From Gammaproteobacteria bacterium (GTDB lineage Bacteria > Pseudomonadota > Gammaproteobacteria > SZUA-229): DNA of 64,000 nucleotides. The position numbers and the translations under genes are program-made. Where the stretch lies: NCBI GenBank assembly GCA_030595325.1, contig JAUVDN010000002.1:705-64704 (forward strand), written 5' to 3'. Positions 1 through 56,136 of this stretch are shown piece after piece (position 1 is the first letter of the stretch; every line of letters begins with the position of its first letter). The notes under the pieces are model-generated. The model saw nothing but the letters and a program-made list of their open reading frames with translations, made no database searches and was not told where the DNA came from.

Positions 1-521
1 GCCACAGCTACCTTGGTCATTTTTATTTTATCGGTGTTATCTCGCTTCATCTTCCATGCTGCACTGAGTCGTTTAGACTTCATTTGGCTTTCTTCAAAGG
101 CTCGGCTCATTATCACAATTGAAATGAATAATTCGTTTGTATTTAGGTTTTCATATTCATATTTCATGCCGTCTGAAAGTGTTACAATCGTTATTTGTTT
201 TTCAAGAATGGATAAAAAAAGTTTAAGAGCAGTGGGTACGCTTTGTCTTGATAGTCGGTCAAGATTTTCAACGATTAAATATGAGCCTGCGGAGATAACA
301 CCTGTTTCAATTGCTTGTAGAAAATCAGCCAATGCGCCTTGTTCAGCATTTTTTCCTTTGTATGCGCTAACGCCTTTATCATATAGCGAAAGAGATGTGT
401 CCATAATCAAATTGTTTTCCTTGCAATACAATTCAGACATTTCTTTTTGGCGTACGAGTGAGTTGCCTTTAATTTGTTCAGGTCTTGAAAACCTGATGTA
501 ACTATATGCTTTTATAGGCAT
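1..521 (-). CDS. Serine recombinase (resolvase/invertase-type catalytic domain); 5' end intact, 3' end runs off the window
   Basis: Absent from the ORF track because there is no stop inside the window. Reverse-strand translation from the ATG at 521-519 reads MPIKAYSYIRFSRPEQIKGNSLVRQKEMSELYCKENNL...GSYLIVENLDRLSRQSVPTALKLFLSILEKQITIVTLSDG. The YxRxSxxxQ nucleophile motif, GNSLxRQ and VENLDRLSR are serine-recombinase hallmarks. AAAGG lies 6 nt upstream of the ATG. The + strand ORF 13..501 is its antisense shadow. Confidence 0.8.
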   Translation of the reverse strand, partial: MPIKAYSYIRFSRPEQIKGNSLVRQKEMSELYCKENNLIMDTSLSLYDKGVSAYKGKNAEQGALADFLQAIETGVISAGSYLIVENLDRLSRQSVPTALKLFLSILEKQITIVTLSDGMKYEYENLNTNELFISIVIMSRAFEESQMKSKRLSAAWKMKRDNTDKIKMTKVAV

Positions 522-546: not shown

Positions 547-1599
547 ATGAGACCAGTCCATCTTCTAACCGTAATAGAAAAAGAGTTTTTAAGTGCTTCT
601 GAACATAAGGGGTTAATATACCACACCCCTGTGATGTTGTGGGGTGCGCCAGGTGTTGGCAAATCGCAGATGGTGGCTCAGGTTGCCGAACGGCAAAACA
701 CACCACTGATTGATATCCGTTTGTCACAGATGGAGCCCAGTGACCTGCGCGGCATTCCATTTAAAGTAGGTGATACTGTCGAATGGGCAGTGCCTGCGAT
801 GTTACCTAATGCAGAGCGTCACGGTAACAACGGTATTTTATTTCTCGACGAAATTACGTCAGCTCCGCCCAGTGTGTCAGCTGCTGCGTATCAATTAATT
901 CTTGATAGAAAACTAGGTGAGTATGAAGTACCTGATGGCTGGGCGATTATTGCTGCAGGTAACAGGCAGGGTGATCGTGGTGTGACCTACAGCATGCCCG
1001 CACCGTTAGCGAACCGTTTCTCGCATTATGAAGTTGATATCAATCTGGATGACTGGGTTGCATGGGCTTATGCTAATGGCATCGACGAACGTGTTATTGC
1101 CTTTTTGCGTTTTCGTCAGGATCTATTGTTTGAGTTCGACGCATCGCAAAATCCAGTGGCGTTTCCTTCACCGCGTTCGTGGGAATTTGCACATCGTGCA
1201 TTACATAAATTTGAAGACTACCCTGAACTGTTTTCAGGTGCATTACAGGCCTGTGTAGGAAAAGCGGCCGGAATCGAACTGGCGGCATTTATCGCCAGTC
1301 TGGATCAGTTGCCGGATCTTGACGCTATCATCAAAGGCGAAGAAGTTGATACACCCAAAGAAATCGATTTACAGTATGCGGTAGCAACTGCGTTGGTTGG
1401 TCGTGCTATCCGTGCCAAAGATACGGATGATGCGATGAAGGTTCACGGAAATATTTTAACTTACGCCAACCGTTTCCCGCAGCGTGAAATGGGTGTGATG
1501 ATGGTTTCAGATATGCATCGTGCTATTGGACAGGATATTTTTTCAGTGCCGGAGTTTGCCAGTTGGGCTGACAAGATTGCTGACTTGATGCTTTATTAA
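547..1599 (+). CDS. MoxR-like AAA+ ATPase (AAA_5 / CbbQ-NorQ-CobS-like)
   Basis: Walker A GAPGVGKS, Walker B ILFLDEI, sensor-1-like IIAAGN, about 350 aa. Followed by a VWA-domain gene, the usual MoxR partner. Confidence 0.85.
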   Translation: MRPVHLLTVIEKEFLSASEHKGLIYHTPVMLWGAPGVGKSQMVAQVAERQNTPLIDIRLSQMEPSDLRGIPFKVGDTVEWAVPAMLPNAERHGNNGILFLDEITSAPPSVSAAAYQLILDRKLGEYEVPDGWAIIAAGNRQGDRGVTYSMPAPLANRFSHYEVDINLDDWVAWAYANGIDERVIAFLRFRQDLLFEFDASQNPVAFPSPRSWEFAHRALHKFEDYPELFSGALQACVGKAAGIELAAFIASLDQLPDLDAIIKGEEVDTPKEIDLQYAVATALVGRAIRAKDTDDAMKVHGNILTYANRFPQREMGVMMVSDMHRAIGQDIFSVPEFASWADKIADLMLY

Positions 1600-1602
1600 A
1601 GC

Positions 1603-1696
1603 AATGAATAACGAATAATGAATAGTGAATAATTAGAAGCTAAAAATATGGTTTATTCTCTCAGCATTATTCAGTATTCAGTATTCAGTATTCATT
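1603..1696. repeat. Inverted pair of NTGAATA heptamer arrays (32-nt arms, 30-nt spacer) between the AAA+ and VWA genes
   Basis: Left arm 1603-1634 is aatgaataacgaataatgaatagtgaataatt. Right arm 1665-1696 is cattattcagtattcagtattcagtattcatt. The reverse complement of the right arm matches the left arm at 27 of 32 positions by hand alignment. Confidence 0.75.
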
Positions 1697-1704
1697 AAGC
1701 TGTT

Positions 1705-2964
1705 ATGTCTAGCTTCCCCGATGTTGAACAAAAACTTGCTGCAGCCAGAATACGTTTAATTCTGGACAAGCCTTTTCTAGGCGCGCTGGTTTTACGACTA
1801 CCGATGGTGGCCGGTGATTCCAAATGGTGTGAGTCAACCTTCAGTGACGGTAAAACATTTTATTACAATCACGATTACATCGATGCTCTTGATCAAGAGC
1901 AGACGCAATTTGCGCTTTCACATGAAGCGCTGCATTGTGCACTTTCACATTTTCATCGCCGTGGCCATCGGGTAAAACACCGTTGGGACCTGGCCTGCGA
2001 TTATGCGGTTAACCCTCTATTAATAAATGATGGCTTAAAGCCGACACCCGATGCCATGCACCTTCGCGAATATGAGGGTATGACGGCGGAAGAAATCTAC
2101 CCTTGTCTCGAAGATAATGATAATGATGGCGAACGGGATTTAGAAAGTAAAAAGCAATCTGATAATGCTGATAGTGATGATGAACAATCAAGTCAGGGCA
2201 ATGGCGGTGGTGGCAAGGAAAAGGAAAAACAAAACGACGAGCAGAGTGAAGGTCAGGGCGAACAGGATAAAGATCAGGATGATGCGGGTAAGGGTGGCTC
2301 AACGCCGCAACCAGCAGGATTGTCTCAGCAAGAAGAGGATGAGTTAAGTCTGCAATGGGAGCAACGTCTGGCAGGCGCTGCACAACAGGCATTACAGTCA
2401 GGTAAGTTAGAAGGTGAAATGGCTAGAATGGTTGATCATCTGCTGCAGCCAAAACTACCCTGGCGCATGTTGCTTGCACGTTATATGTCAGCCACCGCCA
2501 GGGAAGATTACAGTTATACAAGACCTTCATCACGCCGTGGAGATCCGGCGGTTTATCCGAGTATGCGTAGCAACGAGACTAATATCGTTGTTGCTGTTGA
2601 TACCAGCGGTTCGATAGACCAGGAAGAAATCGAAGAATTTATTTCAGAGATCGATGCAATAAAAAGTCAGGTGCGTGCCAGTGTTACGCTGCTTACTTGT
2701 GATTCAAAATTAAATTATGGTTGTCCCTGGTTTTTTGAGGCATGGGATCAGTTTCAGTTTGACGTGGAGATTCGTGGCGGTGGTGGCACAAACTTTAAAC
2801 CAGTTTTTGAGTGGGTCGAAAAGCAGGATAAAGCACCAGATTTACTGGTTTATTTTACTGATGCAGATGGTGTGTTTCCAGAAGTTGAACCAAATTTCCC
2901 TGTGACATGGTTGGTCAAGGGTAAATCAAAAGTGCCTTTCGGTGTAAGGGTTCAGTTAAATTAG
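1705..2964 (+). CDS. VWA-domain protein with N-terminal putative Zn-metallopeptidase domain (DUF2201-type architecture)
   Basis: HExxH motif (SHEALHCALSHFHRRGH), MIDAS DxSxS motif (VVAVDTSGSID), and a roughly 80-residue acidic/Gly low-complexity insert (DNDNDGERDLESKKQSDNADSDDEQSSQGNGGGGKEKEKQNDEQSEGQGEQDKDQDD). Sits downstream of the MoxR ATPase. Confidence 0.75.
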   Translation: MSSFPDVEQKLAAARIRLILDKPFLGALVLRLPMVAGDSKWCESTFSDGKTFYYNHDYIDALDQEQTQFALSHEALHCALSHFHRRGHRVKHRWDLACDYAVNPLLINDGLKPTPDAMHLREYEGMTAEEIYPCLEDNDNDGERDLESKKQSDNADSDDEQSSQGNGGGGKEKEKQNDEQSEGQGEQDKDQDDAGKGGSTPQPAGLSQQEEDELSLQWEQRLAGAAQQALQSGKLEGEMARMVDHLLQPKLPWRMLLARYMSATAREDYSYTRPSSRRGDPAVYPSMRSNETNIVVAVDTSGSIDQEEIEEFISEIDAIKSQVRASVTLLTCDSKLNYGCPWFFEAWDQFQFDVEIRGGGGTNFKPVFEWVEKQDKAPDLLVYFTDADGVFPEVEPNFPVTWLVKGKSKVPFGVRVQLN

Positions 2965-4089
2965 ATGGCACTTTCAGCAGAAGATAACTTACGTCTAAAC
3001 GTTTTGCTTGCGCAAGAGCTTTATGCTGTGCGTATCGATGAATCAAAGATGATTGTCTACGCATTAACCGCTAAAGGTGAGGCAAAGGTTCCTCTCAATG
3101 CGATAGGTAAAGACGATCCTTATTTAAAAGAGATTAAAGCATTATTTAGTACCCATGTAATGGGATCTCCTGGCGGTTATCCTGTCTATCTGAAGCGATG
3201 GACACGTATGGGGCAGGCGCGTGATGATAGTCTCGCGCAATTGTTATTGCTCGGCGAGCCTGAAGCAGTTGTGGCAGCAGTGCATGCACCAGGCTTAACT
3301 GATGAGATGGCAGCGCGAGCTTGGTGGGCAATGCCAACGTCAGAAAATGCAAGACGCATGTTGGAGAAACAAGCTGTCGTCGAAGGCGAGACGGGAAAAG
3401 TGCTAGCGGAATTCTTACTGGAGTTCTTACCGTTTGAAGAAGAGCAGAGTGATATGATTGATTCTGTTCGACTTGTGTTGCAGCCAGGGCTCATCAGTCA
3501 GCAAGAGAAAGATAAACTCTGGAAAAAAACAAAATCAAAGCGAAGTTTCTATGTTGGTTTTTTACATGCTGCAGCAGATGATCTACCGATTGATGTGGCT
3601 GCTCATGCTGATTATGAAACGGTTAAAGAGAAACTGCTTTCTTTAATCGAGAAAGAAAATCCATATGCAATAATGTTGGAAAAAGTATTAAGTGAAAATG
3701 GTCAGGCTTTTGTCCAAACAGTAGAAGATGCAATTAAGAAGCCGGGTAATCAGGATGTTGTGGTTTCGTTATTGTCCGCTGTAGCGAAATATTTTGAAAG
3801 TATTGTTCCAGATGTATTTACAGAGGATGACGTTGAAATTATCCGTACTGAAGCTAATGCGTTATGTTGTGGTGATAATGAATCTCTTAACGAAGTACTT
3901 GCCGTGCTTAATGATTCAAATGATAAAGTTCAGGATTATCTCTGCGCCATGACTGTATTGGCTTGTTTGAGTGTCAAACTGGTTAATCCTATCTTTGCTC
4001 GTACTGATGCTATTGGTACAGTGATGCGTAAAAAAATAAAACCGGTAACAGATCCTATACTAGAACAACTCCAAATACTGCGTAACTAA
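2965..4089 (+). CDS. Hypothetical protein (374 aa), no recognisable motif; start abuts the VWA gene stop
   Basis: Long ORF on the same strand. Its ATG at 2965 immediately follows the TAG at 2962-2964. Composition is protein-like, with no TM segment or signal peptide apparent. Confidence 0.6.
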   Translation: MALSAEDNLRLNVLLAQELYAVRIDESKMIVYALTAKGEAKVPLNAIGKDDPYLKEIKALFSTHVMGSPGGYPVYLKRWTRMGQARDDSLAQLLLLGEPEAVVAAVHAPGLTDEMAARAWWAMPTSENARRMLEKQAVVEGETGKVLAEFLLEFLPFEEEQSDMIDSVRLVLQPGLISQQEKDKLWKKTKSKRSFYVGFLHAAADDLPIDVAAHADYETVKEKLLSLIEKENPYAIMLEKVLSENGQAFVQTVEDAIKKPGNQDVVVSLLSAVAKYFESIVPDVFTEDDVEIIRTEANALCCGDNESLNEVLAVLNDSNDKVQDYLCAMTVLACLSVKLVNPIFARTDAIGTVMRKKIKPVTDPILEQLQILRN

Positions 4090-4098
4090 AATTTAAGT

Positions 4099-4638
4099 AT
4101 GCGATTTGATAAAGTACTTATTATCATTGATGTGCAATTGAAGGCCGATCAATTACAGCAATATTTGCCCTGTTCAGTAAATATTATCGGTAGAACATTG
4201 GCTGCGATTGCTGATGAATACGAAAAAGAAAACAAAACCGGTTACTACCCTGCAATTGATTTCTTTAAGAAGCTGGATAGCGTTGATCCTGATTTAATTG
4301 CATCAGCAGAACAGGTGGCATGGCTGGTGGCAAAGTTGGCACGTGAAACCATCCAGTTAAAATTACGTCCTATCTTTTCATCTGTGCAAATTCAATCGAT
4401 TCAGACGCTTGCGTTTTCTTTGCCTAAGATCCGTCCAAACAAAGCAGATGCTATTGATCAGCTTGCAAAGCATTACACGCCAGACAGTGTGAAAATAGAA
4501 CTTGTGCTTACTATGATGCGTCGTGATTCAGAATCAGAAGACAATCGTGCTGTGTTGTACGCAAGAAAGATGATGTTTCGTTGGTTGGAGTCAGAATTTG
4601 AAATGATTGAGGTGACTAGCTCTAAGTCTTTGCAGTGA
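4099..4638 (+). CDS. Hypothetical protein (179 aa), no recognisable motif
   Basis: Same-strand ORF starting 9 nt after the previous stop. No clear SD sequence. No motif recognised. Confidence 0.5.
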   Translation: MRFDKVLIIIDVQLKADQLQQYLPCSVNIIGRTLAAIADEYEKENKTGYYPAIDFFKKLDSVDPDLIASAEQVAWLVAKLARETIQLKLRPIFSSVQIQSIQTLAFSLPKIRPNKADAIDQLAKHYTPDSVKIELVLTMMRRDSESEDNRAVLYARKMMFRWLESEFEMIEVTSSKSLQ

Positions 4639-4649
4639 ATTTAATATTA

Positions 4650-4991
4650 TTAAAGCAGTAACTTATATTCATCGTCTTTAAAACCAATCAGTATTGCATT
4701 TCCACTTTCGAGTACGGGACGTTTTATCGCGCTTGGGTTTTCCAGCATAACTTTTATCGCTGACTTTTCATCAATGTTGTTTTTGATGTCGTCACCAAGT
4801 TTTCGCCAGGTGGTTCCGCGTTTATTTAGTACGATTTCCCAACCCGCTTTTTGAATCCATTGTTTCAGGCATTTCTCAGGCACGCCCAGCTTTTTATAAT
4901 CGTGGAATTCGTATTTCAGATTATTGTTATCTAACCACTTGCGAGCTTTCTTCATGGTGTCGCAATTAGGAATGCCGTATATTTTAATCAT
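4650..4991 (-). CDS. yffB: ArsC/Spx-family glutaredoxin-like protein (YffB-like)
   Basis: MIKIYGIPNCDTMKKARKWLDNNNLKYEFHDYKK...RGTTWRKL...IKRPVL closely parallels E. coli YffB. The track ORF starts at 5015, but Met9 (4991) matches the family N-terminus. The position next to dapD is conserved. Confidence 0.8.
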   Translation of the reverse strand: MIKIYGIPNCDTMKKARKWLDNNNLKYEFHDYKKLGVPEKCLKQWIQKAGWEIVLNKRGTTWRKLGDDIKNNIDEKSAIKVMLENPSAIKRPVLESGNAILIGFKDDEYKLLL

Positions 4992-5012
4992 AGTATTCTG
5001 CTTTATATCACA

Positions 5013-5041
5013 CATAAACCCCTCTCCCTATGGGAGAGGGG
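5013..5041 (-). terminator. GC-rich perfect hairpin followed by a T-run (minus strand) downstream of dapD
   Basis: cccctctccc-tat-gggagagggg at 5019-5041 gives a 10-bp perfect stem with a 3-nt loop. On the minus strand it is followed by TTTATGTG. Confidence 0.5.
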
Positions 5042-5061
5042 CGGGGTGAGGGTATGATTAT

Positions 5062-5886
5062 TTAATCAATATCACGCAGTAATTCATTTAAGCCAGTCTT
5101 ACCACGAGTTTTTTCATCTACCTGTTTAACGATTACTGCGCAGTAAAGACTGTATGTACCGTCTTTGGATGGTAGGTTACCGGATACAACAACAGAGCCG
5201 GCTGGTATGCGACCGTATGAAATTTCACCGGTCATACGATTAAATATTTTTGTGCTTTGGCCGATGTAGACACCCATTGATATAACAGAGCCTTCTTCAA
5301 CGATAACACCTTCTACAACTTCTGAGCGTGCACCGATGAAACAGTTGTCTTCAATAATAGTTGGAGAGGCCTGTAGTGGTTCTAAAACGCCACCAATGCC
5401 AACACCGCCAGAGAGGTGAACGTTTTTACCTATCTGTGCACATGAGCCGACTGTTGCCCAGGTATCGACCATAGTGCCGGTATCAACGTAAGCACCAATG
5501 TTTACGTATGACGGCATCAGTACTACGCTTGGCGCAACATAAGAACCAAAGCGAGCTGTTGCTGGTGGTACCACGCGGACACCTGATTCACGAAATTCTT
5601 TTGTGTTTAGGTCGGCAAATTTGGAATTAACTTTGTCGTAGTAATTGGTGAAGCCGCCTTTGATAAATTCGTTATCATTGATGCGGAAAGAAAGCAACAC
5701 TGCTTTTTTCAACCATTCATTGACTACCCAGTCGCCATCAATTTTTTCAGCGACACGTGCTTCACCTGAATCGAGTAAGTTTACCGCCTGTGTAACAGCA
5801 TCAGAGATGTGTGTTTCTACGTTACGTGGTGTGATATCGGCGCGGCGTTCGAATGCTTCTTCTATTATGCTTTTTAATTCAGACAT
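5062..5886 (-). CDS. dapD: 2,3,4,5-tetrahydropyridine-2,6-dicarboxylate N-succinyltransferase
   Basis: 274 aa with hexapeptide-repeat C-terminal half, a typical DapD N-terminus ([20 protein letters not shown]) and the [34 protein letters not shown] region. Confidence 0.93.
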
Positions 5887-19170: not shown

Positions 19171-21156
19171 ATGCAATATACAAATTTAATTTGGCGAGAC
19201 GGGCAGCCATATAGTGAACAATTTGATGATATTTACTATTCATCGAAGCAGGGTGAGCGTATCTCTGGTGAAAGTGAGTTTAATCACGTCTTTTTCAAAA
19301 ATAATGGATTGCCTGACCGATGGCACGAAGACAGGGATTTTGTTATCGCTGAATTGGGTTTCGGCAGCGCTCTAAACTGTTTGTTAACCATACGTGAGTG
19401 GTTAGCTCATCTGGAGGATATAAATTCTGCTGTGGATGCTGAGGGTAGAACTGGGTGCAGAAAAACACTTCATTATATAGCCATAGAAAAGTATCCTTTT
19501 TCAGCAGAAGATATTGCGCTGTTACATGCTGATCACGCTGAGCTAAAACCTTATTGTGATGAGCTGGTTTCTAATTATCCTTTAGCTATTGAGGCAAGTC
19601 ACAGTCGACGTTTATTTAATGGCCGTGTTGTTATCCATTATAAATTTATGGATGCTTATAATGCTCTGGCTAATGAATCTCTAAACGTGGACGCCTGGTA
19701 TTTGGATGGTTTTTCACCAGCGAATAACCCTGGTTTATGGTCGACTGAATTATTTGATGAATTACCTAAAAACAGCAGATTGAATGCGACATGCAGTACT
19801 TATACTTCAGCAGGTTTTGTGAAGCGGAATTTACAGGGTGCTGGCTTTGAGGTTAAGAAGGTTAAAGGCCATGGAAAAAAGCGCGATATGATTGTGGCTA
19901 CGCTGAAACATAAGTGCGAACATAAATTAACTTATGCTGACAAGCCATGGTTTTTTCAAAAGCTTGCTGATAAAAAGCATCCTAAAAGAGTAACGATTAT
20001 CGGCGGTGGTATAGCAGGTCTGAGTATTGCCTATTCTATGATTCAGCGTGGAATATCGGTTACGATTATCGATAGCAATGGCTCAGAAGTTAAAGAGACA
20101 TCATCAAATTTAGCGGCAATTGTTTATCCGCGCTTATCTTTAGATAATGACACTGACACAGAGTTTTATATGTCAGCTTTCTGTTATGCCACTTTTGTTA
20201 TAAAAAAATTACAGGGTAAAAATAAGAAAAGATTCTGGTTTGATGGCGGCTTGTTACAATCTATCAATAGAAAAAGAATCATTTCTATATTAAATAAGTT
20301 TGAATTCAACTGTAATTACATTTCAATAAATAAAGAACCATTATCTCAGAGCGTTAAGGATGAAGATAAAGTTTTTGTGGAATATAAAACGGCAGGGGTG
20401 GTACTGCCTGAGATGCTATGTGATGCGATAAAGAAAGAATGCGGTGAGTATTTGCAGTTTATAAAAGCTGGTATTACTCAGCTTGAACGTGATGGGGACG
20501 TATGGCGATGTTTAGAAGGCACGAAAGTAATTAATGAAGAAAAAATACTCATTATTGCAAATGGTGCAAAATTAAAATCTCTTGAATGTTCAGCAATGTT
20601 TCCTGTTGAATCTGTTCGTGGACAAATGCTGGAAGTGTCGGCGACACCTGTGTCACAGAAAATATCTAAAGTTATTAATAGCGGTATTTATGTGACACCA
20701 GTCATCAATCAGAAACACGTTATCGGTGGAACTTATTCGCGTGATAACAAGAATGAAAATGTAGAAGAGAGGGACAATTACACGCTGCTTGAATCAGCAA
20801 ACGATGTTTATCCTGGAGCATTTGAAATGGCTGATTACGTTCAGTCGTGGGTAGGGTTTCGTGCCATGGCAAAAGATAGAGTTCCTATAGTAGGTGCAAT
20901 GCCGGATATAGCATCTTTTAATAACGAATATGCTGATATTAATATTGGTGATATTAAAAAAAATTACCAGCCTGCAAAAAATCTAAAGGGTCTGCATGTA
21001 TCCATGGCGCATGGATCACGAGGTTTTACCAGTTGTTTTCTGGCGGCTGAAATAATATCTTCGCAGATAATAGGGGGTCCTTCACCGGTGCGTAAAAGGG
21101 TATTGGATTATTTAAACCCTTCAAGGTTTGTTGTGAATGATCTTAAGCGAAGGTGA
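19171..21156 (+). CDS. mnmC: Bifunctional tRNA mnm5s2U34 methyltransferase / FAD-dependent cmnm5s2U34 oxidoreductase
   Basis: N-terminus LIWRDGQPYSEQFDDIYYS, methyltransferase half, DAWYLDGFSPANNP motif, then the FAD GxGxxG motif (IIGGGIAGLS). Confidence 0.9.
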   Translation: MQYTNLIWRDGQPYSEQFDDIYYSSKQGERISGESEFNHVFFKNNGLPDRWHEDRDFVIAELGFGSALNCLLTIREWLAHLEDINSAVDAEGRTGCRKTLHYIAIEKYPFSAEDIALLHADHAELKPYCDELVSNYPLAIEASHSRRLFNGRVVIHYKFMDAYNALANESLNVDAWYLDGFSPANNPGLWSTELFDELPKNSRLNATCSTYTSAGFVKRNLQGAGFEVKKVKGHGKKRDMIVATLKHKCEHKLTYADKPWFFQKLADKKHPKRVTIIGGGIAGLSIAYSMIQRGISVTIIDSNGSEVKETSSNLAAIVYPRLSLDNDTDTEFYMSAFCYATFVIKKLQGKNKKRFWFDGGLLQSINRKRIISILNKFEFNCNYISINKEPLSQSVKDEDKVFVEYKTAGVVLPEMLCDAIKKECGEYLQFIKAGITQLERDGDVWRCLEGTKVINEEKILIIANGAKLKSLECSAMFPVESVRGQMLEVSATPVSQKISKVINSGIYVTPVINQKHVIGGTYSRDNKNENVEERDNYTLLESANDVYPGAFEMADYVQSWVGFRAMAKDRVPIVGAMPDIASFNNEYADINIGDIKKNYQPAKNLKGLHVSMAHGSRGFTSCFLAAEIISSQIIGGPSPVRKRVLDYLNPSRFVVNDLKRR

Positions 21157-24100
21157 TTTTTCACCTTCATTTAAAGATAGTGCTTCTTTTATAGGTTTTG
21201 GTTGTTCGATACCATAGCCTTGCGCATAATCAACCTTTAGTTCCCGTAACTTTTTAACGATCTGATCATTTTCCACATATTCGGCAATCGTTTCAATGCC
21301 CATGATGTGGCCAACCTCATTGATGGCTGCGACCATTGCATGGTCTACGTTGTTGTTGACCATGTCAGAGACAAAGCTACCGTCTATCTTTAGGTAATCA
21401 ACGGGTAGACTCTTCAGGTATTGAAAAGATGATAGCCCGCTGCCAAAATCATCTAGCGCAAATTTGAAGCCGTAACTTTTTAGTTTCTTAATAAGAGTTT
21501 TTGCTTTTTGTAAGTTTTTAATCGCGGCAGTTTCAGTCACTTCAAAGCATATGTGCTTTGTGTTTATCTCAAACTCTTCAGCGGTTTCTTTGATGTAATT
21601 AACGATGTTTTTATCATCAATAGTATTGCCTGATAAGTTAATGGAATAGTGTGTTATTTTTTCATCCAAGTCAGAATATTTGTGTATAAATGAAAAAGTT
21701 TTATATATTACATTTCTATCTACAAGGTGCATCAGCTTGTAACGCTCAGCTGCTGGAATAAATGCATTTGGTGGGATGATATTGTTATTCTCATCTAGCA
21801 GGCGAACCAGAATCTCCATATGTTGCTTCATGGGGTCTTTGTCTTTTAGTGGAACGATGGGTTGCGCGTAAAGCTTTAAACGATCATTATCGATTGCTTC
21901 TGAGATACGCGTGGCCCAGTAAGTTTCTTCCTGTCGCCTTATCAGTTCACTATCTTCTTCTTCATAGACATAGATCTGGTTTTCACCATGATCCTTAGCA
22001 GTGTAACAGGCAAGGTCTGCTTTTCTTATTGCGTCGGCAGCATCGGCGGTGTTTTTATCAAGTGGGTTGATGCCGATGCAAACGCCCAGGCTGTAATCAC
22101 AGTCATCCCATCTGAAAACCATATCTGAGATAGTGTTTGTAATCTTATTGGTTATTTTTAAAGTAGCTTCGTGTGAACAATGTTTAAGTATTAAGCCAAA
22201 TTCATCACCACCAAGACGGCTGAGTACATCGTCACCACGGATACACGATTGTATCAATGACGTTATCTGTATCAAACATTGGTCACCAGCGATGTGTCCA
22301 GCGGTATCATTGATCAGTTTAAATCTGTCCAGATCAAGATAACAGAGTACATGATGCTTAGTGTTGTTTATTGCATCATAAACATGATCAGAAAGTTCTA
22401 TATCAAATGCATCTCTATTTAGCAGATTGGTTAAGGGATCATGCGCAGCCTGATGTTTGATGGTGTTTTCAAGTTGACGACGTTGTGTTTCATCATGAAA
22501 TACAATTACTACACCTTCTGCTTTACCGGAAGTATTTAGAATAGGTGAGATAGAGCTCTCGATGTCTTTATCGTTGCCATTCTTGCTTACCAAACTTAGT
22601 ATGCTTTTGTTAATGCTTATGCCGTCATATAAGCAGGACTTAACAACATCGTGAATGGGTTCACCTGTGTCAAGATCTTCAATCCTAAATACTTTTTGTA
22701 CCGCCAGGTTTTTAGCATCATTCAGTGACCATGCCGTCAGTTCTTCAGCAACTTGATTCATGTACTCGATTTTACCGTTAACATTGGTTGTGATGACGGC
22801 GTCACCAATTGAATGCAAGGTAACTTCTGCACGTTCACGTTCAGATTTCATATCGCTGACTAATTGCATGTTGATGATGGCCATCTGTACACTTTGACCA
22901 AACTGTGACATTAACTGTTCGTCGACTTTATCAAACTCATCATGATTTCTGAAAACAGCAATTGCACCGTATGGTTTTTCTTTGAGAGGCACTGGCGTTG
23001 TCAGAACGGATTTGATATTAAATTGCTTCAATAGCTCTTTCTGAGCACGGGGGGTAGTTGTTACATCATTAATTAACAGGTTTTTGTTATTTAATATTGT
23101 CCAGGAGCAGAGGTCACCGTCTTCAACATCAAGTGTTACATTTTCAAGCCTTTCTGACTGTAGCCCACACACTGCATGGAAATGAAAAGTTTGCTTGTCT
23201 TCATGGATGACTGGAAAGGCAGCAAGTTGTGATTTTGTGATTTCTTGTGCCGCCCGGCATATGTTTTTGAAGAATACATCTTCTTCATATCCTTCAGTTA
23301 TTAATCGCGCTATCCAGTTATCGATTAACGCAAGGCCTTGTTGGTAGCGGTTGCTGTCATTGACTTCAATTTGGTATTCAAGTTCGATAAGGGCACGAGA
23401 TGTAGCAATGGTTAAAATGTTTTCGGCAAGATTTGTATCTTCAATCGGCCTGTCACTTGCAATTGCGATCATGCCAATTACATTGTCTTTGTTGTTAATA
23501 AGGCTGACGCCGATATAACTTACTGCATTATTTAATAGCTTTTCTGTGCAATCCGGAAAATAATTTGAAAAGTCACGGTTGTGTACAAGCCTGCCACTTT
23601 TTATAACTTCTTCACAGGGAGTGTCAGCTAACGAATAAGTCATGTTATTGCTGAACATTCCATGATCCAACAGGCCGATTATTTCTGCGCTTGCCCCAGA
23701 AGAGCTGATTTTATTAATGTATGCATATTCGACATCTAATGCGGTACATAAGGTATTGAGCAGAGTGATCAATCGACCTTCGTTGTCGCCACTATTGCTT
23801 TTTTTATCGATACTGACTAATTGGTATAGGGCTTTTTCTGTTTTAGCACGCAGGTTGATTTCATCGTTTAGTTTAGTATTACTTTCAGATAATTCATCCT
23901 GACTTTTTCGCAGAGTTATAAAGATATATAAGATATAAAATATTAAATAGACAGTGCATAGAAACAGTAATATATTAAAAATTTGAGTATTATTGTTTTG
24001 CTTCTTTTTTAGTTCAGAAACATTGTTTTTTAATATAATGATTTGCTTCTCAGTGTTTAATGAGTTAAATCGCTTCAGCGTCTCGTCTATCTCAGGAAGC

Positions 24101-24702
24101 TTCTCGATAATCATCAAGCTGTGGTTGATCAGAGCATTGGTATCTGTATCTGGTTTGTTATTCAATCTGTCGATGAGTGGATAGATCTTATTGGCGATGT
24201 TGTTCTTTGGGTATTCATTATATTCTAAAAGCAGGGTAACAAGTTCTGCTGTAGTTCGAAGCTGTTGCTTGGATTGTGATTTTGGTTTAACAGAATAGAG
24301 TTCTGTGCTCACGTTGAAAATATAAAACAATGAGTTCTGAAGGATGGAATGATGAGTCTTAAAATCTTCAACTAAAATTGACTGGTGAGTAATTGCATTT
24401 TCTATGCTGCTGATTACATCGATACCAATTTCTTCTGCTGCAACGTGGCTCTCATTTAGGTAGGCGACGTTACTGTTTAGGTCGTTAAGTGTTTTGTTGA
24501 GTGTGTCGTATTGCTGAATCTGATTGCTTCTGTAGCGTAATAGATCACGGTGAAGTTGTACCTGTAAATCTTGTATCTCTTCGATCGTTGACAGTGTCTT
24601 GTCAAGAGGCAGGTCACTAAATATGCTCTTATAGAATAGAAAGGTGATAACTGCAAACAGCAGTACTATCCCTACCCAGTAATTTACATTTCCCTTGTTC
24701 AT
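21121..24702 (-). CDS. Membrane sensor protein: helical extracytoplasmic domain - GAF x2 - PAS - GGDEF - EAL
   Basis: TM at about residues 8-28 and 240-262, bracketing a helical region. PAS (HSIGDAVITTNVNGKIEYMN), GGDEF (RLGGDEFGLIL), and EAL-domain motifs (QPIV, EILVR, FEVTE, DDFGSG, KIDGSF, QGY). Confidence 0.9.
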   Translation of the reverse strand: MNKGNVNYWVGIVLLFAVITFLFYKSIFSDLPLDKTLSTIEEIQDLQVQLHRDLLRYRSNQIQQYDTLNKTLNDLNSNVAYLNESHVAAEEIGIDVISSIENAITHQSILVEDFKTHHSILQNSLFYIFNVSTELYSVKPKSQSKQQLRTTAELVTLLLEYNEYPKNNIANKIYPLIDRLNNKPDTDTNALINHSLMIIEKLPEIDETLKRFNSLNTEKQIIILKNNVSELKKKQNNNTQIFNILLFLCTVYLIFYILYIFITLRKSQDELSESNTKLNDEINLRAKTEKALYQLVSIDKKSNSGDNEGRLITLLNTLCTALDVEYAYINKISSSGASAEIIGLLDHGMFSNNMTYSLADTPCEEVIKSGRLVHNRDFSNYFPDCTEKLLNNAVSYIGVSLINNKDNVIGMIAIASDRPIEDTNLAENILTIATSRALIELEYQIEVNDSNRYQQGLALIDNWIARLITEGYEEDVFFKNICRAAQEITKSQLAAFPVIHEDKQTFHFHAVCGLQSERLENVTLDVEDGDLCSWTILNNKNLLINDVTTTPRAQKELLKQFNIKSVLTTPVPLKEKPYGAIAVFRNHDEFDKVDEQLMSQFGQSVQMAIINMQLVSDMKSERERAEVTLHSIGDAVITTNVNGKIEYMNQVAEELTAWSLNDAKNLAVQKVFRIEDLDTGEPIHDVVKSCLYDGISINKSILSLVSKNGNDKDIESSISPILNTSGKAEGVVIVFHDETQRRQLENTIKHQAAHDPLTNLLNRDAFDIELSDHVYDAINNTKHHVLCYLDLDRFKLINDTAGHIAGDQCLIQITSLIQSCIRGDDVLSRLGGDEFGLILKHCSHEATLKITNKITNTISDMVFRWDDCDYSLGVCIGINPLDKNTADAADAIRKADLACYTAKDHGENQIYVYEEEDSELIRRQEETYWATRISEAIDNDRLKLYAQPIVPLKDKDPMKQHMEILVRLLDENNNIIPPNAFIPAAERYKLMHLVDRNVIYKTFSFIHKYSDLDEKITHYSINLSGNTIDDKNIVNYIKETAEEFEINTKHICFEVTETAAIKNLQKAKTLIKKLKSYGFKFALDDFGSGLSSFQYLKSLPVDYLKIDGSFVSDMVNNNVDHAMVAAINEVGHIMGIETIAEYVENDQIVKKLRELKVDYAQGYGIEQPKPIKEALSLNEGEKSPSLKIIHNKP

Positions 24703-37783: not shown

Positions 37784-39988
37784 CTATTTTGAGGTGTGGG
37801 TGAAGCTGCCGTCCCAGTCTGCATCAGGAGGGGTTTCACGGTAATGCATGATACGATCGAGGTAAATTTTATAAATCTTGCGGTCTGGGTCTAGCTGACT
37901 GAGGCCAAAGATTTCTCTTTCAGCCGCGTCCCAGTTCTGTGCGCGGTACTGCTTAATACCGATATGGAATTGCTTGAGCAGTTTTCGGTCAGATTTTGAA
38001 ATATTTTCCAATAAACCCAGTGGTTCGTAGATGGTAACGGGTTTCTTTTTACCCTTAACGCGTACCCGATCGAGTTCGCGGAATTCAAATTCTGGAACTT
38101 CGTGGCGGGTGAATTCACTGGTGATGATATCCACACCGTAGATTTTGGTTAAGCCTTCAAGCCGTGAGCCGAGGTTCACGGAATCACCTAGTACGGTGTA
38201 ATCCACCCGGAACTCTGAACCTTTGTTACCGACATTCATGATTCCGCTACTTACACCGACGCCAACATATATTTCTGGCCACTGTTTTTCGGAAAATTCC
38301 TTTCTTAAGGGGGTCATGCGCTCGACGACGTCGATGGCCGCATTTAGCGCGTGCAGAGCATGCTGCTTATCATCTAGTGGGGCTCCCCAGAATGCCATAA
38401 CGCAATCGCCCATGTATTTATCTATGGTGCCGCGATTGTCATGAATAACCTTTGTAATCGGCGTTAAGAATGCATTGATGTAATCGGTTAGCTCTTTTGG
38501 TTCCAGACCTTCAGAGATAGTGGTAAAACCACGCACATCAGAAAATAAAACAGACATTTCGCGCATTTCACCATCGAGACTGATTTCTTCCATCTTTACA
38601 CTTATTTCATCAACCAGTTCCGGTGGTACGTATTGACCGAAGAGGTGAGCGAGTCGTCGTTTACCACGTGATTCAACGAAGAAGCCATAGGTCATCTGCA
38701 GAGCAAACAACATAACAACGAGTACGACGGATGAAGCTATGGGCAGTACAAGTTGCGCGCTCGTCCAGGCGTAAAAATTAGTGCCGATTAACAGGAGGAT
38801 ACTGCCAATGATAATCAGTGTGGAAAACAGTGCAGAGAGCATTGGCAAGGTGAAAGTCAGGAGGATACCTATAGCGATGATTAAAATAAATTCAAAGCCT
38901 TGCGTGTAACCTGGTGCGTGTAATATTCGTCCATCGAGTATGCCCTGAATGATATTGGCATGCACTTCAACTCCTGGATAAGCAGGTTCGAGAGGAATGG
39001 TTCGCAGATCGAGTAAACCTGGTGCAGAAGTACCAAAGAGTGCAATTTTTCCTTGTAGCTTTGTTTTATCCGCTATTTTATTTAAGACGTCACTTGCTGA
39101 AATATAATCGAAGCTTTTTTGTCTGCCGATGTAAGGGACCAGTATGCCGGATTGATGGTCGACCGGGATGGCTAGTTCACCGATAGTTATCCATTCCAGA
39201 AAAAGATCGTAGGTATCACTGGTTTCTACAACCAGTTCTATAGGCGGTTGACCGGAAGCGACTCTTGCTAAAGCTAAAGCCAGCGACTCATGTAATTCAT
39301 TTTCATATGTCTGCAGTAGTGGTACACGTCTAAACACACCGTCGTCATCTAATAATGGGTTATTGAAAAAACCGCCACTGTAGGCGCTATCCTGAAGCAC
39401 TTTCAGGTTTGCGGTATAACCAACCGTTTTATTTACGGCTAGTTTAGAGAGAATATTTTTATCCAGTTTGGTTATAGCAGTGGGCAGGCCACCTTTTTTT
39501 GTATCGGTGTCCATCACGAAACCCATGACAGTTTTTCTGTCTCTTAAGGATTCTGCAAAACGCAGGTCGTGTTGTAGTGAGGGCATCACCTGATTGTATT
39601 CTTCGATAAATAGAGGGTCGTCCTTCAGCGAACCTTTTGCCATCTTATCGAGCAACTTGGCACCTTCATCGACATCTTCTTCGGCAAACACGATATCGTA
39701 ACCGATGGTTGTAATCTCGTAGTGATCAAATAGAGCATCATTTATTTTTGCGAGAATATTACGGTTCCATGGCCATTGTCCTATTACTTCAAGACTCTTT
39801 TCATCGATATCGATGATGATTACTTTCTTATCGACGTTTTCTGGCAGGGTGATTTTGAGTCGCGCATCATAAGCCTGATTTTCCAGGCTGGTTAAAATCG
39901 GGATATGGATTATATTTCCTACGTGAAGCAGAAATACAAGCGTAAGCAAAAGACTTAATGCGTATCGAATAATTCGTTGAATATCCAC
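37784..39988 (-). CDS. CHASE2-sensor class III adenylate/guanylate cyclase
   Basis: N-terminal TM followed by a CHASE2-type extracytoplasmic domain (IIDIDEKSLEVIGQWPWNR), a TM cluster, then the cyclase domain (SVLFSDVRGFTTISE...KYMGDCVMAFWGAP...NLGSRLE). GTG start. Confidence 0.85.
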   Translation of the reverse strand: MDIQRIIRYALSLLLTLVFLLHVGNIIHIPILTSLENQAYDARLKITLPENVDKKVIIIDIDEKSLEVIGQWPWNRNILAKINDALFDHYEITTIGYDIVFAEEDVDEGAKLLDKMAKGSLKDDPLFIEEYNQVMPSLQHDLRFAESLRDRKTVMGFVMDTDTKKGGLPTAITKLDKNILSKLAVNKTVGYTANLKVLQDSAYSGGFFNNPLLDDDGVFRRVPLLQTYENELHESLALALARVASGQPPIELVVETSDTYDLFLEWITIGELAIPVDHQSGILVPYIGRQKSFDYISASDVLNKIADKTKLQGKIALFGTSAPGLLDLRTIPLEPAYPGVEVHANIIQGILDGRILHAPGYTQGFEFILIIAIGILLTFTLPMLSALFSTLIIIGSILLLIGTNFYAWTSAQLVLPIASSVVLVVMLFALQMTYGFFVESRGKRRLAHLFGQYVPPELVDEISVKMEEISLDGEMREMSVLFSDVRGFTTISEGLEPKELTDYINAFLTPITKVIHDNRGTIDKYMGDCVMAFWGAPLDDKQHALHALNAAIDVVERMTPLRKEFSEKQWPEIYVGVGVSSGIMNVGNKGSEFRVDYTVLGDSVNLGSRLEGLTKIYGVDIITSEFTRHEVPEFEFRELDRVRVKGKKKPVTIYEPLGLLENISKSDRKLLKQFHIGIKQYRAQNWDAAEREIFGLSQLDPDRKIYKIYLDRIMHYRETPPDADWDGSFTHTSK

Positions 39989-54387: not shown

Positions 54388-55326
54388 CTATCTCGGTGTG
54401 ACAGGAAACAGCTGAGTGCTGATGACTTGCGCAACGGTGGCACCAAGACGTTCAGCAAATCGCTCCAGAATGTCTGCCTTAACGGTGTAGTTGACGATAG
54501 TTTCTTCGCCGATGACTTCACGTGCCACATGACTGGAACTAGCCAGCTCATCGATCAGGCCGATGTTTACGGCGGCTTCACCCGTCCAGATCAAACCGCT
54601 AAACAGACCTTCTACTGAGGTATCCAGCCGTTCACCGCGACCATCTTTGACGGCAGTGATGAACTGCTGATGAATTTCGCCGAGCATGGCTTGCATATGT
54701 TCTTTAGTCTGTTCGTTTTCTGGCAGGAATGGGTCAAGTAATGCTTTGTTTTCACCGGCGGTTAGTGTACGGCGTTCAATACCGAGTTTGTTCATGGCGT
54801 CGACAAAGCCAAAATTATCCATACGTACACCAATAGAGCCAACGATACTAGCTTTGTCAGCGTATATCTTGTCGGCAGCGGAGGCGATGTAATAACCACC
54901 TGATGCGCAGATATCAGTGATGACTGCATACAGCGGTGTATCAGGGTTGTCTTTGCGTAAACGAATAATCTCGTCGTAGATGTAACCAGATTGTACCGGT
55001 GAACCACCCGGGCTATTAATTCTTAAAATAACACCAGCGCTGTTTTCATTTTCAAAAGCTTCGCGCAGTGCGGTAACGATACTGTCTGCACTGGCTTCAG
55101 TTTCATCAGAGATAACACCGTTTAATTCGACCAGTGCGGTGTGTTTTTCATCAAGTTCAATTTGTGTGATGCTGGCACTGCCGTACATATAGATGATGCC
55201 GCCAATGTAGGCGAAAGTTAAAGCTTTAAAAAATATGCCCCAGCGCCGTGCTCGTCGTTGTTCACGTAAGCTGGATTCAGCGAGTTGCGTAACAACTTCT
55301 CTTTCCCAGGAAGTGTTGTCGTTCAT
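54388..55326 (-). CDS. sppA: Signal peptide peptidase SppA, 36K type (S49)
   Basis: N-terminal TM, INSPGGS, ASGGYYIASAADKIYA and GSIGV motifs. Confidence 0.85.
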   Translation of the reverse strand: MNDNTSWEREVVTQLAESSLREQRRARRWGIFFKALTFAYIGGIIYMYGSASITQIELDEKHTALVELNGVISDETEASADSIVTALREAFENENSAGVILRINSPGGSPVQSGYIYDEIIRLRKDNPDTPLYAVITDICASGGYYIASAADKIYADKASIVGSIGVRMDNFGFVDAMNKLGIERRTLTAGENKALLDPFLPENEQTKEHMQAMLGEIHQQFITAVKDGRGERLDTSVEGLFSGLIWTGEAAVNIGLIDELASSSHVAREVIGEETIVNYTVKADILERFAERLGATVAQVISTQLFPVTPR

Positions 55327-55411
55327 AATATTTTCCTACTGTTGGTTACAACTAATATTGTAATGATGTGATTTGAGATATAAAGCTTCTGTCTGTTTGC
55401 TGGTATTGCCG

Positions 55412-56083
55412 TCATGAGTAATTATGACTCAGAAAGGTAGATAATTCCGTGATATCCGTTAAACAGGCTAAAGGTTTGTGTTTGTTTAATGTGGTCTCGT
55501 CATGTACGCCGTGTGTGACGCCGATACTATTGATGTTGGCATTGCTGGCCATTTTCAGGTCATGTTCACTATCGCCGATCATTAGTGTCTGTGAGGCTGA
55601 AAAGTTCAGTTCCTGCAGTATTTCATGCAGCATTTCGGGGTGCGGTTTTGATTTGTTTTCACCGGCGCAGCGAGTGGTGACAAAATGATGCGCCAGATTG
55701 TGCTCATTTATCGACTGCTCTAAACCGGCGCGGCTTTTACCGGTGGATATCGCCAAGGTGTAACCATCTTTGCGTAGCTGGTTTAACAAATCGTTAACAC
55801 CGTTAAATAAAGGTGCGGGTACGGCGTTATCGTACATATAGTGCTGACGGTAAGCGTCAGCAATTTCATTTAATTCACCCAGATTCTGTTTTGCGTCGAG
55901 TTCGGGGTGCAGTTTTCCGATGGCCTCCATCAGGCCAAGGCCGATAACATCTCTTGCCTGTTCTGCACTGAGGTTTATGTCGACAGTTTTTTTGCTGGCA
56001 AATTGTAAGCTGGTCACTATACGCTCGATGGAATCGACCAGTGTGCCGTCCCAGTCGAAGACGAGAAGAGGGAAGTGTTTCAT
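55412..56083 (-). CDS. HAD-superfamily hydrolase (phosphoglycolate-phosphatase-like)
   Basis: Motif I is VFDWDGTLVDS, motif II is ISTGKS, and motif III/IV is MIGDSEHD. Its position between rluC and sppA matches pseudomonads. Confidence 0.75.
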   Translation of the reverse strand: MKHFPLLVFDWDGTLVDSIERIVTSLQFASKKTVDINLSAEQARDVIGLGLMEAIGKLHPELDAKQNLGELNEIADAYRQHYMYDNAVPAPLFNGVNDLLNQLRKDGYTLAISTGKSRAGLEQSINEHNLAHHFVTTRCAGENKSKPHPEMLHEILQELNFSASQTLMIGDSEHDLKMASNANINSIGVTHGVHDETTLNKHKPLACLTDITELSTFLSHNYS

Positions 56084-56136
56084 TATTGCTTCTTTATATA
56101 ATGTAGTGGTTATTTAGTAATAGTTATTTAAAGCGC

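What the first reader, a model, noticed from the sequence alone, without database searches (positions are those of the whole stretch)
2965..4638. Two tightly linked ORFs (374 aa, 179 aa) with no recognisable domain downstream of the VWA gene
Seen: both ORFs are long with normal amino-acid composition, and have no TM segment, signal peptide, Cys/His cluster or nucleotide-binding motif. The first is positioned for translational coupling to the VWA gene.

Inference: they appear largely alpha-helical. They could be adaptor or effector subunits of the MoxR-VWA machine, the role played by variable associated proteins in other MoxR-VWA systems.
Basis: inference. Interest (0 to 1): 0.55.

Follow-up and report, generated by a model that had tools for sequence, protein, structure and literature searches.

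The report
DsrS and partner beside MoxR-VWA
The two "domain-less" genes are real: the first belongs to the DsrS family (a sulfur-oxidation protein whose function has never been resolved) and the second is a small partner protein found only next to DsrS, and their conserved position behind a MoxR ATPase and VWA gene pair gives a testable lead on what DsrS does.

Summary
Both ORFs exist as described (2965-4089, 374 aa; 4099-4638, 179 aa) and are under strong purifying selection. Pfam, NCBIfam, PADLOC and PHROGs find nothing.

ORF3 nevertheless belongs to a coherent full-length family that NCBI and UniRef call DsrS. ORF3 is 50-52% identical over its whole length to NCBI-named members and 80% to a UniRef-named one. 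dsrS is the last gene of the Allochromatium vinosum dsr operon, and its function is unresolved.

ORF4 is a small alpha/beta protein with a ferredoxin-like fold, so it is not all-helical. In 66 of 66 metagenomic loci with enough upstream sequence, a DsrS gene lies directly upstream of it.

The AAA-DUF2201(VWA)-DsrS order holds in 27 of 27 close species. It recurs in relatives only 34% identical, in unrelated genomic contexts. About half of all DsrS loci lack the ATPase pair.

The ORF3 model (pLDDT 89) is an alpha-helical repeat scaffold with no solved structural homologue.

Most likely, DsrS with ORF4 is the client-specific adaptor, or the client itself, of a MoxR-VWA remodelling machine tied to Dsr-type sulfur oxidation. 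The mechanism is inferred. I found no paper linking DsrS and MoxR.

The parts
547..1599 (+). MoxR-class AAA+ ATPase (350 aa), with Walker A GAPGVGKS and Walker B ILFLDE
   Evidence: Pfam AAA_5 at 4e-11 and phrog_1297 'ATPase' at 4e-97. Nearest solved relatives are midasin AAA modules, NorQ and CbbQ. It is 64-75% identical in the distant DsrS-linked triads L088, L090 and L091, but only 31% to a phage version.
1600..1704 (+). Intercistronic spacer between the AAA and VWA genes, holding a long AT-rich hairpin built from inverted heptamer repeats
   Evidence: RNA MFE -28.4 kcal/mol, z -4.3; inverted repeat I1. Relatives carry hairpins of different sequence at the same place, z -6 to -9.
1705..2964 (+). 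DUF2201_N (HExxH metallopeptidase-like) plus an acidic linker plus DUF2201 VWA domain with an intact MIDAS (DTSGS...T...D); 419 aa
   Evidence: Pfam hits at 2e-43 and 4e-26. MIDAS residues are invariant in 15 orthologues, while HExxH is lost in 2 of 15. Phage relatives are 25-34% identical.
2965..4089 (+). ORF3: DsrS-family protein, 374 aa, 41.5 kDa, pI 4.9, soluble. It has an N-terminal 3-stranded sheet followed by an alpha-helical repeat scaffold.
4099..4638 (+). ORF4: DsrS-associated small protein, 179 aa, alpha/beta with a ferredoxin-like 4-stranded sheet plus helices

Best explanation
ORF3 is a DsrS-family protein: a soluble, cofactor-motif-free protein of about 41 kDa found in gammaproteobacterial sulfur-oxidiser lineages. 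ORF4 is its dedicated small alpha/beta partner. With the upstream MoxR-class AAA+ ATPase and the DUF2201 metallopeptidase-like/VWA protein, they form a co-inherited four-gene module.

Proposed mechanism, by analogy with NorQ/NorD, CbbQ/CbbO, CoxD/CoxE and RavA/ViaA: the AAA+ ring supplies ATP-driven remodelling and the VWA/MIDAS protein couples it to a target. The DsrS helical-repeat scaffold, with ORF4 bound, supplies specificity. It would act either as the adaptor that presents a Dsr-pathway client (most plausibly the siroheme enzyme DsrAB or an associated Dsr protein) or as the remodelled client itself.

Shown here: gene reality, family identity, fold class, and gene linkage in both directions.

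Inferred: physical interaction, the adaptor role and the identity of the client.
For: Family identity. P0118 (80% identical) is 'Sulfur reduction protein DsrS' in UniRef. P0414, P0430, P0485, P0502 and P0507 are named DsrS by NCBI, and ORF3 is 50-52% identical to two of them over full length. The same PGAP name is given to the Thiocapsa orthologue of Alvin_1265 inside the dsr operon (PMC10892978). ORF3 is 41.5 kDa, against 41.1 kDa for A. vinosum DsrS (my recollection of Grimm et al. 2011).

Distribution. All 80 best species-level hits are Gammaproteobacteria; those labelled more finely are Thiotrichaceae, Thiohalobacter, Thiogranum, Thiohalomonadales, Ectothiorhodospiraceae, Chromatiales and Thioalkalispiraceae.

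Linkage to AAA-VWA. The pair lies directly upstream of DsrS in 36/73 loci, in 27/27 of the close clade, and in 9/46 distant loci. In distant loci it always sits between the Sel1 gene and DsrS. It is also present in L088, L090 and L091, the last two with unrelated flanks and only 34% DsrS identity. AAA, VWA and DsrS identities fall together (75/59/56, then 64-68/47-48/34), whereas phage versions are 31/28%.

ORF4 to DsrS. 66/66. The gap is usually 2-36 nt.

Dsr and siroheme context. CysG lies downstream in 26 species loci and 13/34 metagenomic loci, and glutaredoxin follows in 30/62. In A. vinosum, dsrS follows dsrN (the siroheme amidase) and dsrR (PMC3368242; PMC10892978).

Fold. ORF3 is a HEAT/ARM-like scaffold.
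Against: No dsr gene lies in this 64-kb window. Whether this genome has dsrAB was not seen.

About half of DsrS loci have no AAA-VWA within 10 kb, so DsrS can work without a linked ATPase, or the pair is encoded elsewhere.

I could not align ORF3 directly to Alvin_1265, so the DsrS identity rests on names given by databases to 50-80% identical proteins.

No interaction, expression or phenotype data exist for this module.

CysG, Grx and EgtBD adjacency could be inherited synteny within one clade; it is absent in the deep loci L090-L092.

The only published functional hint is post-transcriptional control of dsr expression in A. vinosum (my recollection of Grimm 2011). That does not obviously call for an AAA+/VWA machine.

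HExxH is lost in 2/15 VWA orthologues, so a proteolytic step is doubtful.
Confidence: 0.6

Rival explanations
1. DsrS (with ORF4) is an autonomous post-transcriptional regulator or accessory factor of dsr gene expression. The AAA/VWA pair is only a frequently co-located but mechanistically separate unit, for example co-regulated housekeeping chaperones.
For: 37 of 73 DsrS loci lack AAA-VWA within 10 kb, while ORF4, Sel1 and Grx stay linked. dsrS has its own promoter in A. vinosum (PMC3368242). Gene-fusion data there pointed to post-transcriptional control (my recollection of Grimm et al. 2011). The VWA-to-DsrS gap reaches about 480 nt in relatives.
Against: The AAA-VWA-DsrS order recurs at 34% DsrS identity in unrelated contexts. 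Where the pair is present it is always exactly upstream of DsrS. The DsrS-linked AAA/VWA proteins form a clade far from the phage versions. ORF3 has no recognisable RNA- or DNA-binding domain.
Confidence: 0.2
2. The four genes form a tetrapyrrole-handling machine analogous to class I chelatases (an AAA+ I/S subunit, a VWA D/T subunit and a porphyrin-binding subunit). DsrS-ORF4 would carry or insert siroheme or siroamide into DsrAB.
Confidence: 0.12
3. The cluster is a phage-derived, mobile or defence module, and ORF3-ORF4 are its effector or toxin-antitoxin genes.
For: AAA and DUF2201 match phage families strongly (phrog_1297 at 4e-97, phrog_1314 at 3e-88; 544 phage records). A serine recombinase gene diverges from the AAA gene at the window's start. 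One IMG record calls an ORF4 homologue a CcdA-type antitoxin.
Against: PADLOC finds nothing for VWA or ORF4, and only one weak local hit (Cas10_Id, E 0.0022, 14 bits) for ORF3. The cluster sits at the same chromosomal position (next to arsC-dapD-dapC) in many species, without the recombinase. There are no viral-contig relatives and no plasmid hits. Phage versions are only 28-31% identical and lack DsrS. ORF4 has a ferredoxin-like fold, not a CcdA ribbon-helix-helix, and no Pfam CcdA hit.
Confidence: 0.03

Closest known systems
DsrS of Allochromatium vinosum (Alvin_1265), last gene of dsrABEFHCMKLJOPNRS
   Same: Same named family according to database names on 50-80% identical proteins. Same size (about 41 kDa), soluble, and without cofactor motifs. 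Found in sulfur-oxidising Gammaproteobacteria. As reported for Thioalkalivibrio and Sulfurifustis/Sulfuricaulis, the gene lies outside any dsr cluster.
   Different: Here it is not in a dsr operon. It is the third gene of an AAA-VWA-DsrS-ORF4 cluster. That linkage, and the ORF4 partner, were not found in the paper library searched here. Direct alignment to Alvin_1265 was not possible with these tools.
MoxR-VWA chaperone pairs (NorQ/NorD, CbbQ/CbbO, CoxD/CoxE, RavA/ViaA)
   Same: An AAA_5/MoxR-class ATPase is encoded next to a VWA protein with an intact MIDAS. The nearest solved ATPases include NorQ and CbbQ. The module is linked to genes of one metabolic system.
   Different: The VWA partner is the uncharacterised DUF2201 type, with an N-terminal HExxH metallopeptidase-like domain. 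Two additional dedicated proteins (DsrS, ORF4) are present. The client is unknown.
MoxR-vWA-VMAP / beta-propeller ternary conflict systems (Kaur, Burroughs, Iyer, Aravind 2020; cited from memory)
   Same: A three-component logic: a MoxR ATPase, a vWA protein and a variable third protein.
   Different: ORF3 and ORF4 contain no VMAP, beta-propeller or effector domain. The AAA gene hits bpMoxR only below threshold (18 bits against a cut-off of 27). The locus is a conserved chromosomal housekeeping-type locus, not a variable defence island.
Phage AAA / DUF2201 pairs (PHROG 1297 / 1314; for example N4-like Acinetobacter phage XC38 gp61 and gp59)
   Same: The same two domain architectures in the same order.
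   Different: Only 28-31% identical. No DsrS or ORF4 is present, and the neighbours are DNA replication genes.

Membership tests
DsrS family | Full-length sequence homology to proteins designated DsrS | tested here: met
   80% identical to UniRef 'Sulfur reduction protein DsrS' P0118. 50% and 52% identical over the whole length to NCBI-named DsrS P0485 and P0414, E 4e-126 and 6e-142. No HMM for the family exists in NCBIfam or Pfam.
DsrS family | Direct homology to the founding member, A. vinosum Alvin_1265 | not testable with these tools
   That sequence could not be retrieved: the genome scan kept only the best 80 loci and the Grimm 2011 paper is not held. There is an indirect chain through the identical PGAP name on the Thiocapsa orthologue of Alvin_1265.
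DsrS family | Soluble cytoplasmic protein of about 41 kDa without cofactor-binding motifs | tested here: met
   41.5 kDa, pI 4.9, no signal peptide, no CxxC or Walker motifs, no conserved Cys.
DsrS family | Encoded at the end of the dsr operon (dsrN-dsrR-dsrS) | tested here: not met
   No dsr genes lie in the 64-kb window. This is not a strict criterion, because dsrS lies outside the dsr cluster in Thioalkalivibrio and Sulfurifustis/Sulfuricaulis.
DsrS family | Host is a Dsr-type sulfur oxidiser | tested here: inconclusive
   Closest loci come from MAGs labelled Thiotrichaceae or Gammaproteobacteria and from vent metagenomes. Other loci carry dsrC or NIR_SIR genes, or dsrE/tusA, nearby. The rest of this genome was not seen.
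MoxR-VWA chaperone system | MoxR-class AAA+ ATPase with Walker A/B, adjacent to a VWA protein with an intact MIDAS | tested here: met
   AAA_5 hit, GAPGVGKS and LFLDE motifs; DUF2201 VWA with DTSGS, T and D invariant.
MoxR-VWA chaperone system | ORF3/ORF4 physically associate with the ATPase/VWA pair or are its client | not testable with these tools
   Only gene linkage is available. Multimer prediction and biochemistry were not available.
MoxR-vWA-VMAP ternary conflict systems | Third gene carries VMAP, beta-propeller or effector domains | tested here: not met
   ORF3 and ORF4 have no such Pfam hit at E up to 1. PADLOC gave nothing for ORF4 and one weak hit for ORF3.
CcdA-type antitoxin (an IMG label on an ORF4 homologue) | CcdA / ribbon-helix-helix domain, paired with a toxin gene | tested here: not met
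   No Pfam hit. The predicted fold is a ferredoxin-like beta-alpha sandwich. The conserved neighbour is DsrS, not a toxin.
Class I (AAA+/VWA) tetrapyrrole chelatases | A large porphyrin-binding H/N subunit alongside the I/S and D/T subunits | tested here: not met
   No CobN/BchH domain is present. ORF3 has only generic HEAT-like similarity.

The most novel reading that the evidence does not exclude
The MoxR ATPase, the DUF2201 VWA protein, DsrS and ORF4 together form a previously unrecognised ATP-driven maturation or repair machine for the reverse dissimilatory sulfite reductase system. It might, for example, insert siroheme or siroamide, or reactivate DsrAB or DsrC. DsrS would be the client-recognition scaffold. 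This would finally assign a function to DsrS and to the widespread DUF2201 family.
Probability: 0.2. Interest if true: 0.8.

Novelty: new variant of a known kind. Interest (0 to 1): 0.55.

Why it matters
DsrS has been carried in dsr operon diagrams for about two decades with no resolved function. DUF2201 VWA proteins and their MoxR partners are widespread in bacteria and in hundreds of phage genomes, yet they are uncharacterised.

A conserved AAA-VWA-DsrS-partner module links these two unknowns. It suggests concrete experiments: complex formation, Dsr enzyme maturation, and deletion phenotypes in environmentally abundant marine sulfur oxidisers.

It also defines a new protein family (ORF4) that is an obligate genomic companion of DsrS.

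Tried and rejected
HMM libraries (Pfam, NCBIfam, PADLOC, PHROGs) gave nothing for ORF3 or ORF4.

A PDB sequence-profile search with the family alignment gave nothing.

The AFDB library was unavailable, so no AlphaFold-DB neighbours or UniProt DsrS entries could be checked.

The model was still confident.

The viral-contig scan with the VWA alignment found no relatives. A plasmid tblastn with ORF3 found nothing.

The exact-sequence contig look-up for the window's own ORF3 found no record.

A cluster-name look-up on ten distant representatives gave no informative names.

The Grimm et al. 2011 DsrS paper is not in the library. A whole-word search for 'DsrS' returned only unrelated acronyms.

The toxin-antitoxin, defence-island and spurious-ORF readings were considered and rejected; see the rival explanations.

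Full report
OBSERVATION

The window holds a + strand cluster of four ORFs:
- 547-1599 (350 aa)
- 1705-2964 (419 aa)
- 2965-4089 (ORF3, 374 aa)
- 4099-4638 (ORF4, 179 aa)

The ORF3 ATG directly follows the TAG of the 419-aa gene. ORF4 starts 9 nt after the ORF3 stop.

The first gene is an AAA_5/MoxR-class ATPase (Walker A GAPGVGKS, Walker B LFLDE). The second is DUF2201_N (HExxH metallopeptidase-like) plus a DUF2201 VWA domain. Its MIDAS residues are invariant across orthologues.

ORF3 and ORF4 have no significant hit in Pfam, NCBIfam, PADLOC or PHROGs. They have no Walker, CxxC or HExxH motif and no signal peptide.

Both are real genes. ORF3 has thousands of homologues and ORF4 has 301. Against relatives, dN is 0.09-0.18 while synonymous sites are saturated, so dN/dS is below 0.1.

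WHAT ORF3 IS

A full HMMER scan of 1.8 billion representatives found a compact family of 429 clusters, mostly full length at about 360-390 aa. Conserved motifs include GSPGGYPvxLxRWTRMGQ, LLLLGEPEAV, RAWWA and LPFE. No Cys is conserved.

Several members carry the name DsrS:
- P0118 (80% identical to ORF3) is 'Sulfur reduction protein DsrS' in UniRef.
- P0414, P0430, P0485, P0502 and P0507 are 'DsrS' or 'sulfur reduction protein DsrS' at NCBI, and P0467 and P0484 are 'DsrS' in UniRef.
- ORF3 aligns end to end with P0485 (50% identity) and P0414 (52%).

The same PGAP name is borne by the Thiocapsa bogorovii orthologue of A. vinosum Alvin_1265, which sits in the dsr operon after dsrN and dsrR (PMC10892978).

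The literature says the function of DsrS is unresolved and that dsrS has its own promoter (PMC3368242). It also says dsrS lies outside the dsr cluster in Thioalkalivibrio and in Sulfurifustis/Sulfuricaulis, as it does here.

From memory (Grimm et al. 2011, Front Microbiol 2:51, not held in the library): A. vinosum DsrS is a monomeric 41.1-kDa cytoplasmic protein. It is important but not essential for oxidation of stored sulfur, with hints of post-transcriptional control. ORF3 is 41.5 kDa.

I could not obtain Alvin_1265 itself. The assignment is therefore strong but indirect.

STRUCTURES

ORF3 was modelled with 131 sequences and gave pLDDT 89.2 and pTM 0.84. The model has a small three-stranded sheet (residues 19-43) followed by about 22 helices.
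- Foldseek gave nothing below E = 0.07.

ORF3 is therefore a helical-repeat scaffold with no solved homologue.

GENOMIC CONTEXT, STARTING FROM DsrS

A scan of one genome per species found 542 relatives. The best 80 are all Gammaproteobacteria, many from sulfur-oxidiser lineages: Thiotrichaceae, Thiohalobacter, Thiogranum, Thiohalomonadales, Ectothiorhodospiraceae and Thioalkalispiraceae.

The typical gene order is 2OG-oxygenase(-), DUF6866(-), a 190-aa ORF, a 65-aa ORF(-), a Sel1-repeat protein, [AAA, VWA], DsrS, [ORF4], [glutaredoxin], then [CysG or EgtB-EgtD].

Counts:

| Feature | Loci |
|---|---|
| AAA+VWA directly upstream of DsrS, all loci | 36/73 |
| Same, loci at least 60% identical to ORF3 | 27/27 |
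| Same, more distant loci | 9/46 |
| ORF4 directly downstream of DsrS | 42/78 |

Where the pair occurs in distant loci, it is always slotted between Sel1 and DsrS. ORF4 is usually 2-36 nt from DsrS.

The VWA-to-DsrS gap varies from 0 to about 480 nt. Translational coupling is therefore not a conserved feature.

Three very distant family members were examined:
- L090 (34% identical; a complete MAG chromosome) has AAA-DUF2201-DsrS in a wholly unrelated neighbourhood.
- L091 (35% identical) also has AAA-DUF2201-DsrS in an unrelated neighbourhood.
- L092 has thioredoxin-DsrS without the pair.

Identities fall together across the three genes:

| Comparison with the window | AAA | VWA | DsrS |
|---|---|---|---|
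| L088 | 75% | 59% | 56% |
| L090 / L091 | 64-68% | 47-48% | 34% |
| Phage version | 31% | 28% | none present |

The triad is thus a co-inherited unit, not a by-product of local synteny.

GENOMIC CONTEXT, STARTING FROM ORF4

A metagenome scan seeded with a distant ORF4 alignment returned 80 loci:
- In 66 of 66 with at least 300 nt upstream, a DsrS homologue lies directly upstream.
- 21/30 have AAA+VWA further upstream.
- Glutaredoxin follows in 30/62.
- CysG follows in 13/34.

ORF4 is therefore an obligate genomic companion of DsrS. It is tied to DsrS rather than to the ATPase pair: 15 species loci have DsrS-ORF4 without AAA-VWA.

THE AAA/VWA PAIR

The nearest solved ATPases are midasin modules, NorQ and CbbQ.

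DUF2201 is uncharacterised; the paper search found nothing useful. It is common in phages, with 544 records at 25-34% identity. There it follows an ATPase among replication genes, without DsrS.

HExxH is lost in 2 of 15 DsrS-linked orthologues, so catalysis by that domain is doubtful.

The cluster is not on a mobile element. It occupies the same site next to arsC-dapD-dapC in many species. The serine recombinase at the window's start is specific to this genome. PADLOC, viral-contig and plasmid searches gave no significant match.

INTERPRETATION

Shown:
- ORF3 is a DsrS-family protein.
- ORF4 is a new DsrS-associated family.
- Both are linked, in a large and deep subset of lineages, to a dedicated clade of MoxR ATPase and DUF2201 VWA protein.

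Inferred, by analogy with NorQ/NorD, CbbQ/CbbO, CoxD/CoxE and RavA/ViaA: the ATPase-VWA pair remodels a client, and DsrS-ORF4 supplies specificity as adaptor or is itself the client. The client probably belongs to the Dsr sulfur-oxidation system. That last step rests on the position of dsrS after dsrN/dsrR in A. vinosum and on frequent CysG adjacency.

Rivals are:
- an autonomous regulatory role for DsrS;
- a chelatase-like siroheme machine;
- a mobile or defence module.

The first cannot be excluded, because half of the DsrS loci lack the pair. The second is attractive but thinly supported. The third is contradicted by the evidence.

NOVELTY

DsrS is a known name, so ORF3 alone is a new member of a known but functionally unresolved family.

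I found no paper linking DsrS and MoxR. On that evidence the four-gene module and the ORF4 family appear undescribed. I rate this a new variant of the MoxR-VWA kind, of moderate interest. It would be of high interest if the Dsr-maturation reading proves right.

Noticed in passing
window 1600-1704; also L006:8512-8650, L008:4978-5116, L010:2039-2156, L015:8438-8563: The spacer between the AAA and VWA genes holds a long hairpin. In the window it is about 30 bp and built from inverted (TGAATAN)x4 heptamers, z -4.3. Relatives have hairpins of quite different sequence at the same position (for example (CAGATGAAC)n), with 26-30 bp stems and z -6 to -9; in L006 and L008 this is followed by a second small stem and a U-rich run. 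This may be an intercistronic processing, stability or attenuation element that sets the AAA:VWA stoichiometry. In L001, L005 and L024 a 124-129 aa PDDEXK_3 gene occupies this spacer instead.
   Followed up: partly
window 1-521, minus strand: The N-terminal part of a serine recombinase (MPIKAYSYIRFSRPEQ...) starts at about 521 and runs off the window, diverging from the AAA gene. Relatives have a Sel1-repeat gene at this position instead, so this looks like a lineage-specific insertion upstream of the cluster. The + strand 'ORF' at 13-501 is its antisense shadow.
   Followed up: partly
L001:6456-6926, L069:9564-10001, L088:7011-7454 and 45 other loci; L093:575-949: A Sel1-repeat protein of about 145-160 aa is conserved immediately upstream of DsrS, or of AAA-VWA-DsrS. 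It often overlaps the DsrS start when the ATPase pair is absent. An 'HCP-like' (Sel1-type) gene also lies 1.5 kb upstream of the ATPase/DUF2201 pair in N4-like phage XC38. It may be a further component of the module.
   Followed up: partly
L069:11982-13412, L037:11121-11444, L035:12264-14500, L092:7395-7760: Genes just downstream of DsrS-ORF4 are repeatedly thiol- or siroheme-related. They include glutaredoxin, the siroheme synthase CysG and the ergothioneine genes EgtB/EgtD. One very distant DsrS is preceded by a thioredoxin gene.
   Followed up: partly
L093 (NC_055823.1) 3965-5176, and other phage records: Phage DUF2201 (metallopeptidase-like plus VWA) genes are annotated 'HNH endonuclease' in several GenBank/RefSeq records and in PHROG 1314. 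No HNH domain was detected in the homologous window protein, so this appears to be a propagated misannotation.
   Followed up: no
window 51392-54079 (-) and 37784-39988 (-): Two CHASE2-sensor proteins are present. One is fused to a eukaryotic-type Ser/Thr kinase domain and the other to an adenylate/guanylate cyclase domain. A 1193-aa DAHL-GAF-PAS-GGDEF-EAL protein lies at 21121-24702 (-). The window is signalling-rich and has no dsr genes.
   Followed up: no
window 54388-57087 (-): The RluC-type pseudouridine synthase, HAD hydrolase and S49 peptidase trio here is the same trio that lies directly upstream of DsrS-ORF4 in another clade (L056, L067, L084, L087, L089). This shows that the DsrS pair has moved between conserved housekeeping neighbourhoods.
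   Followed up: no
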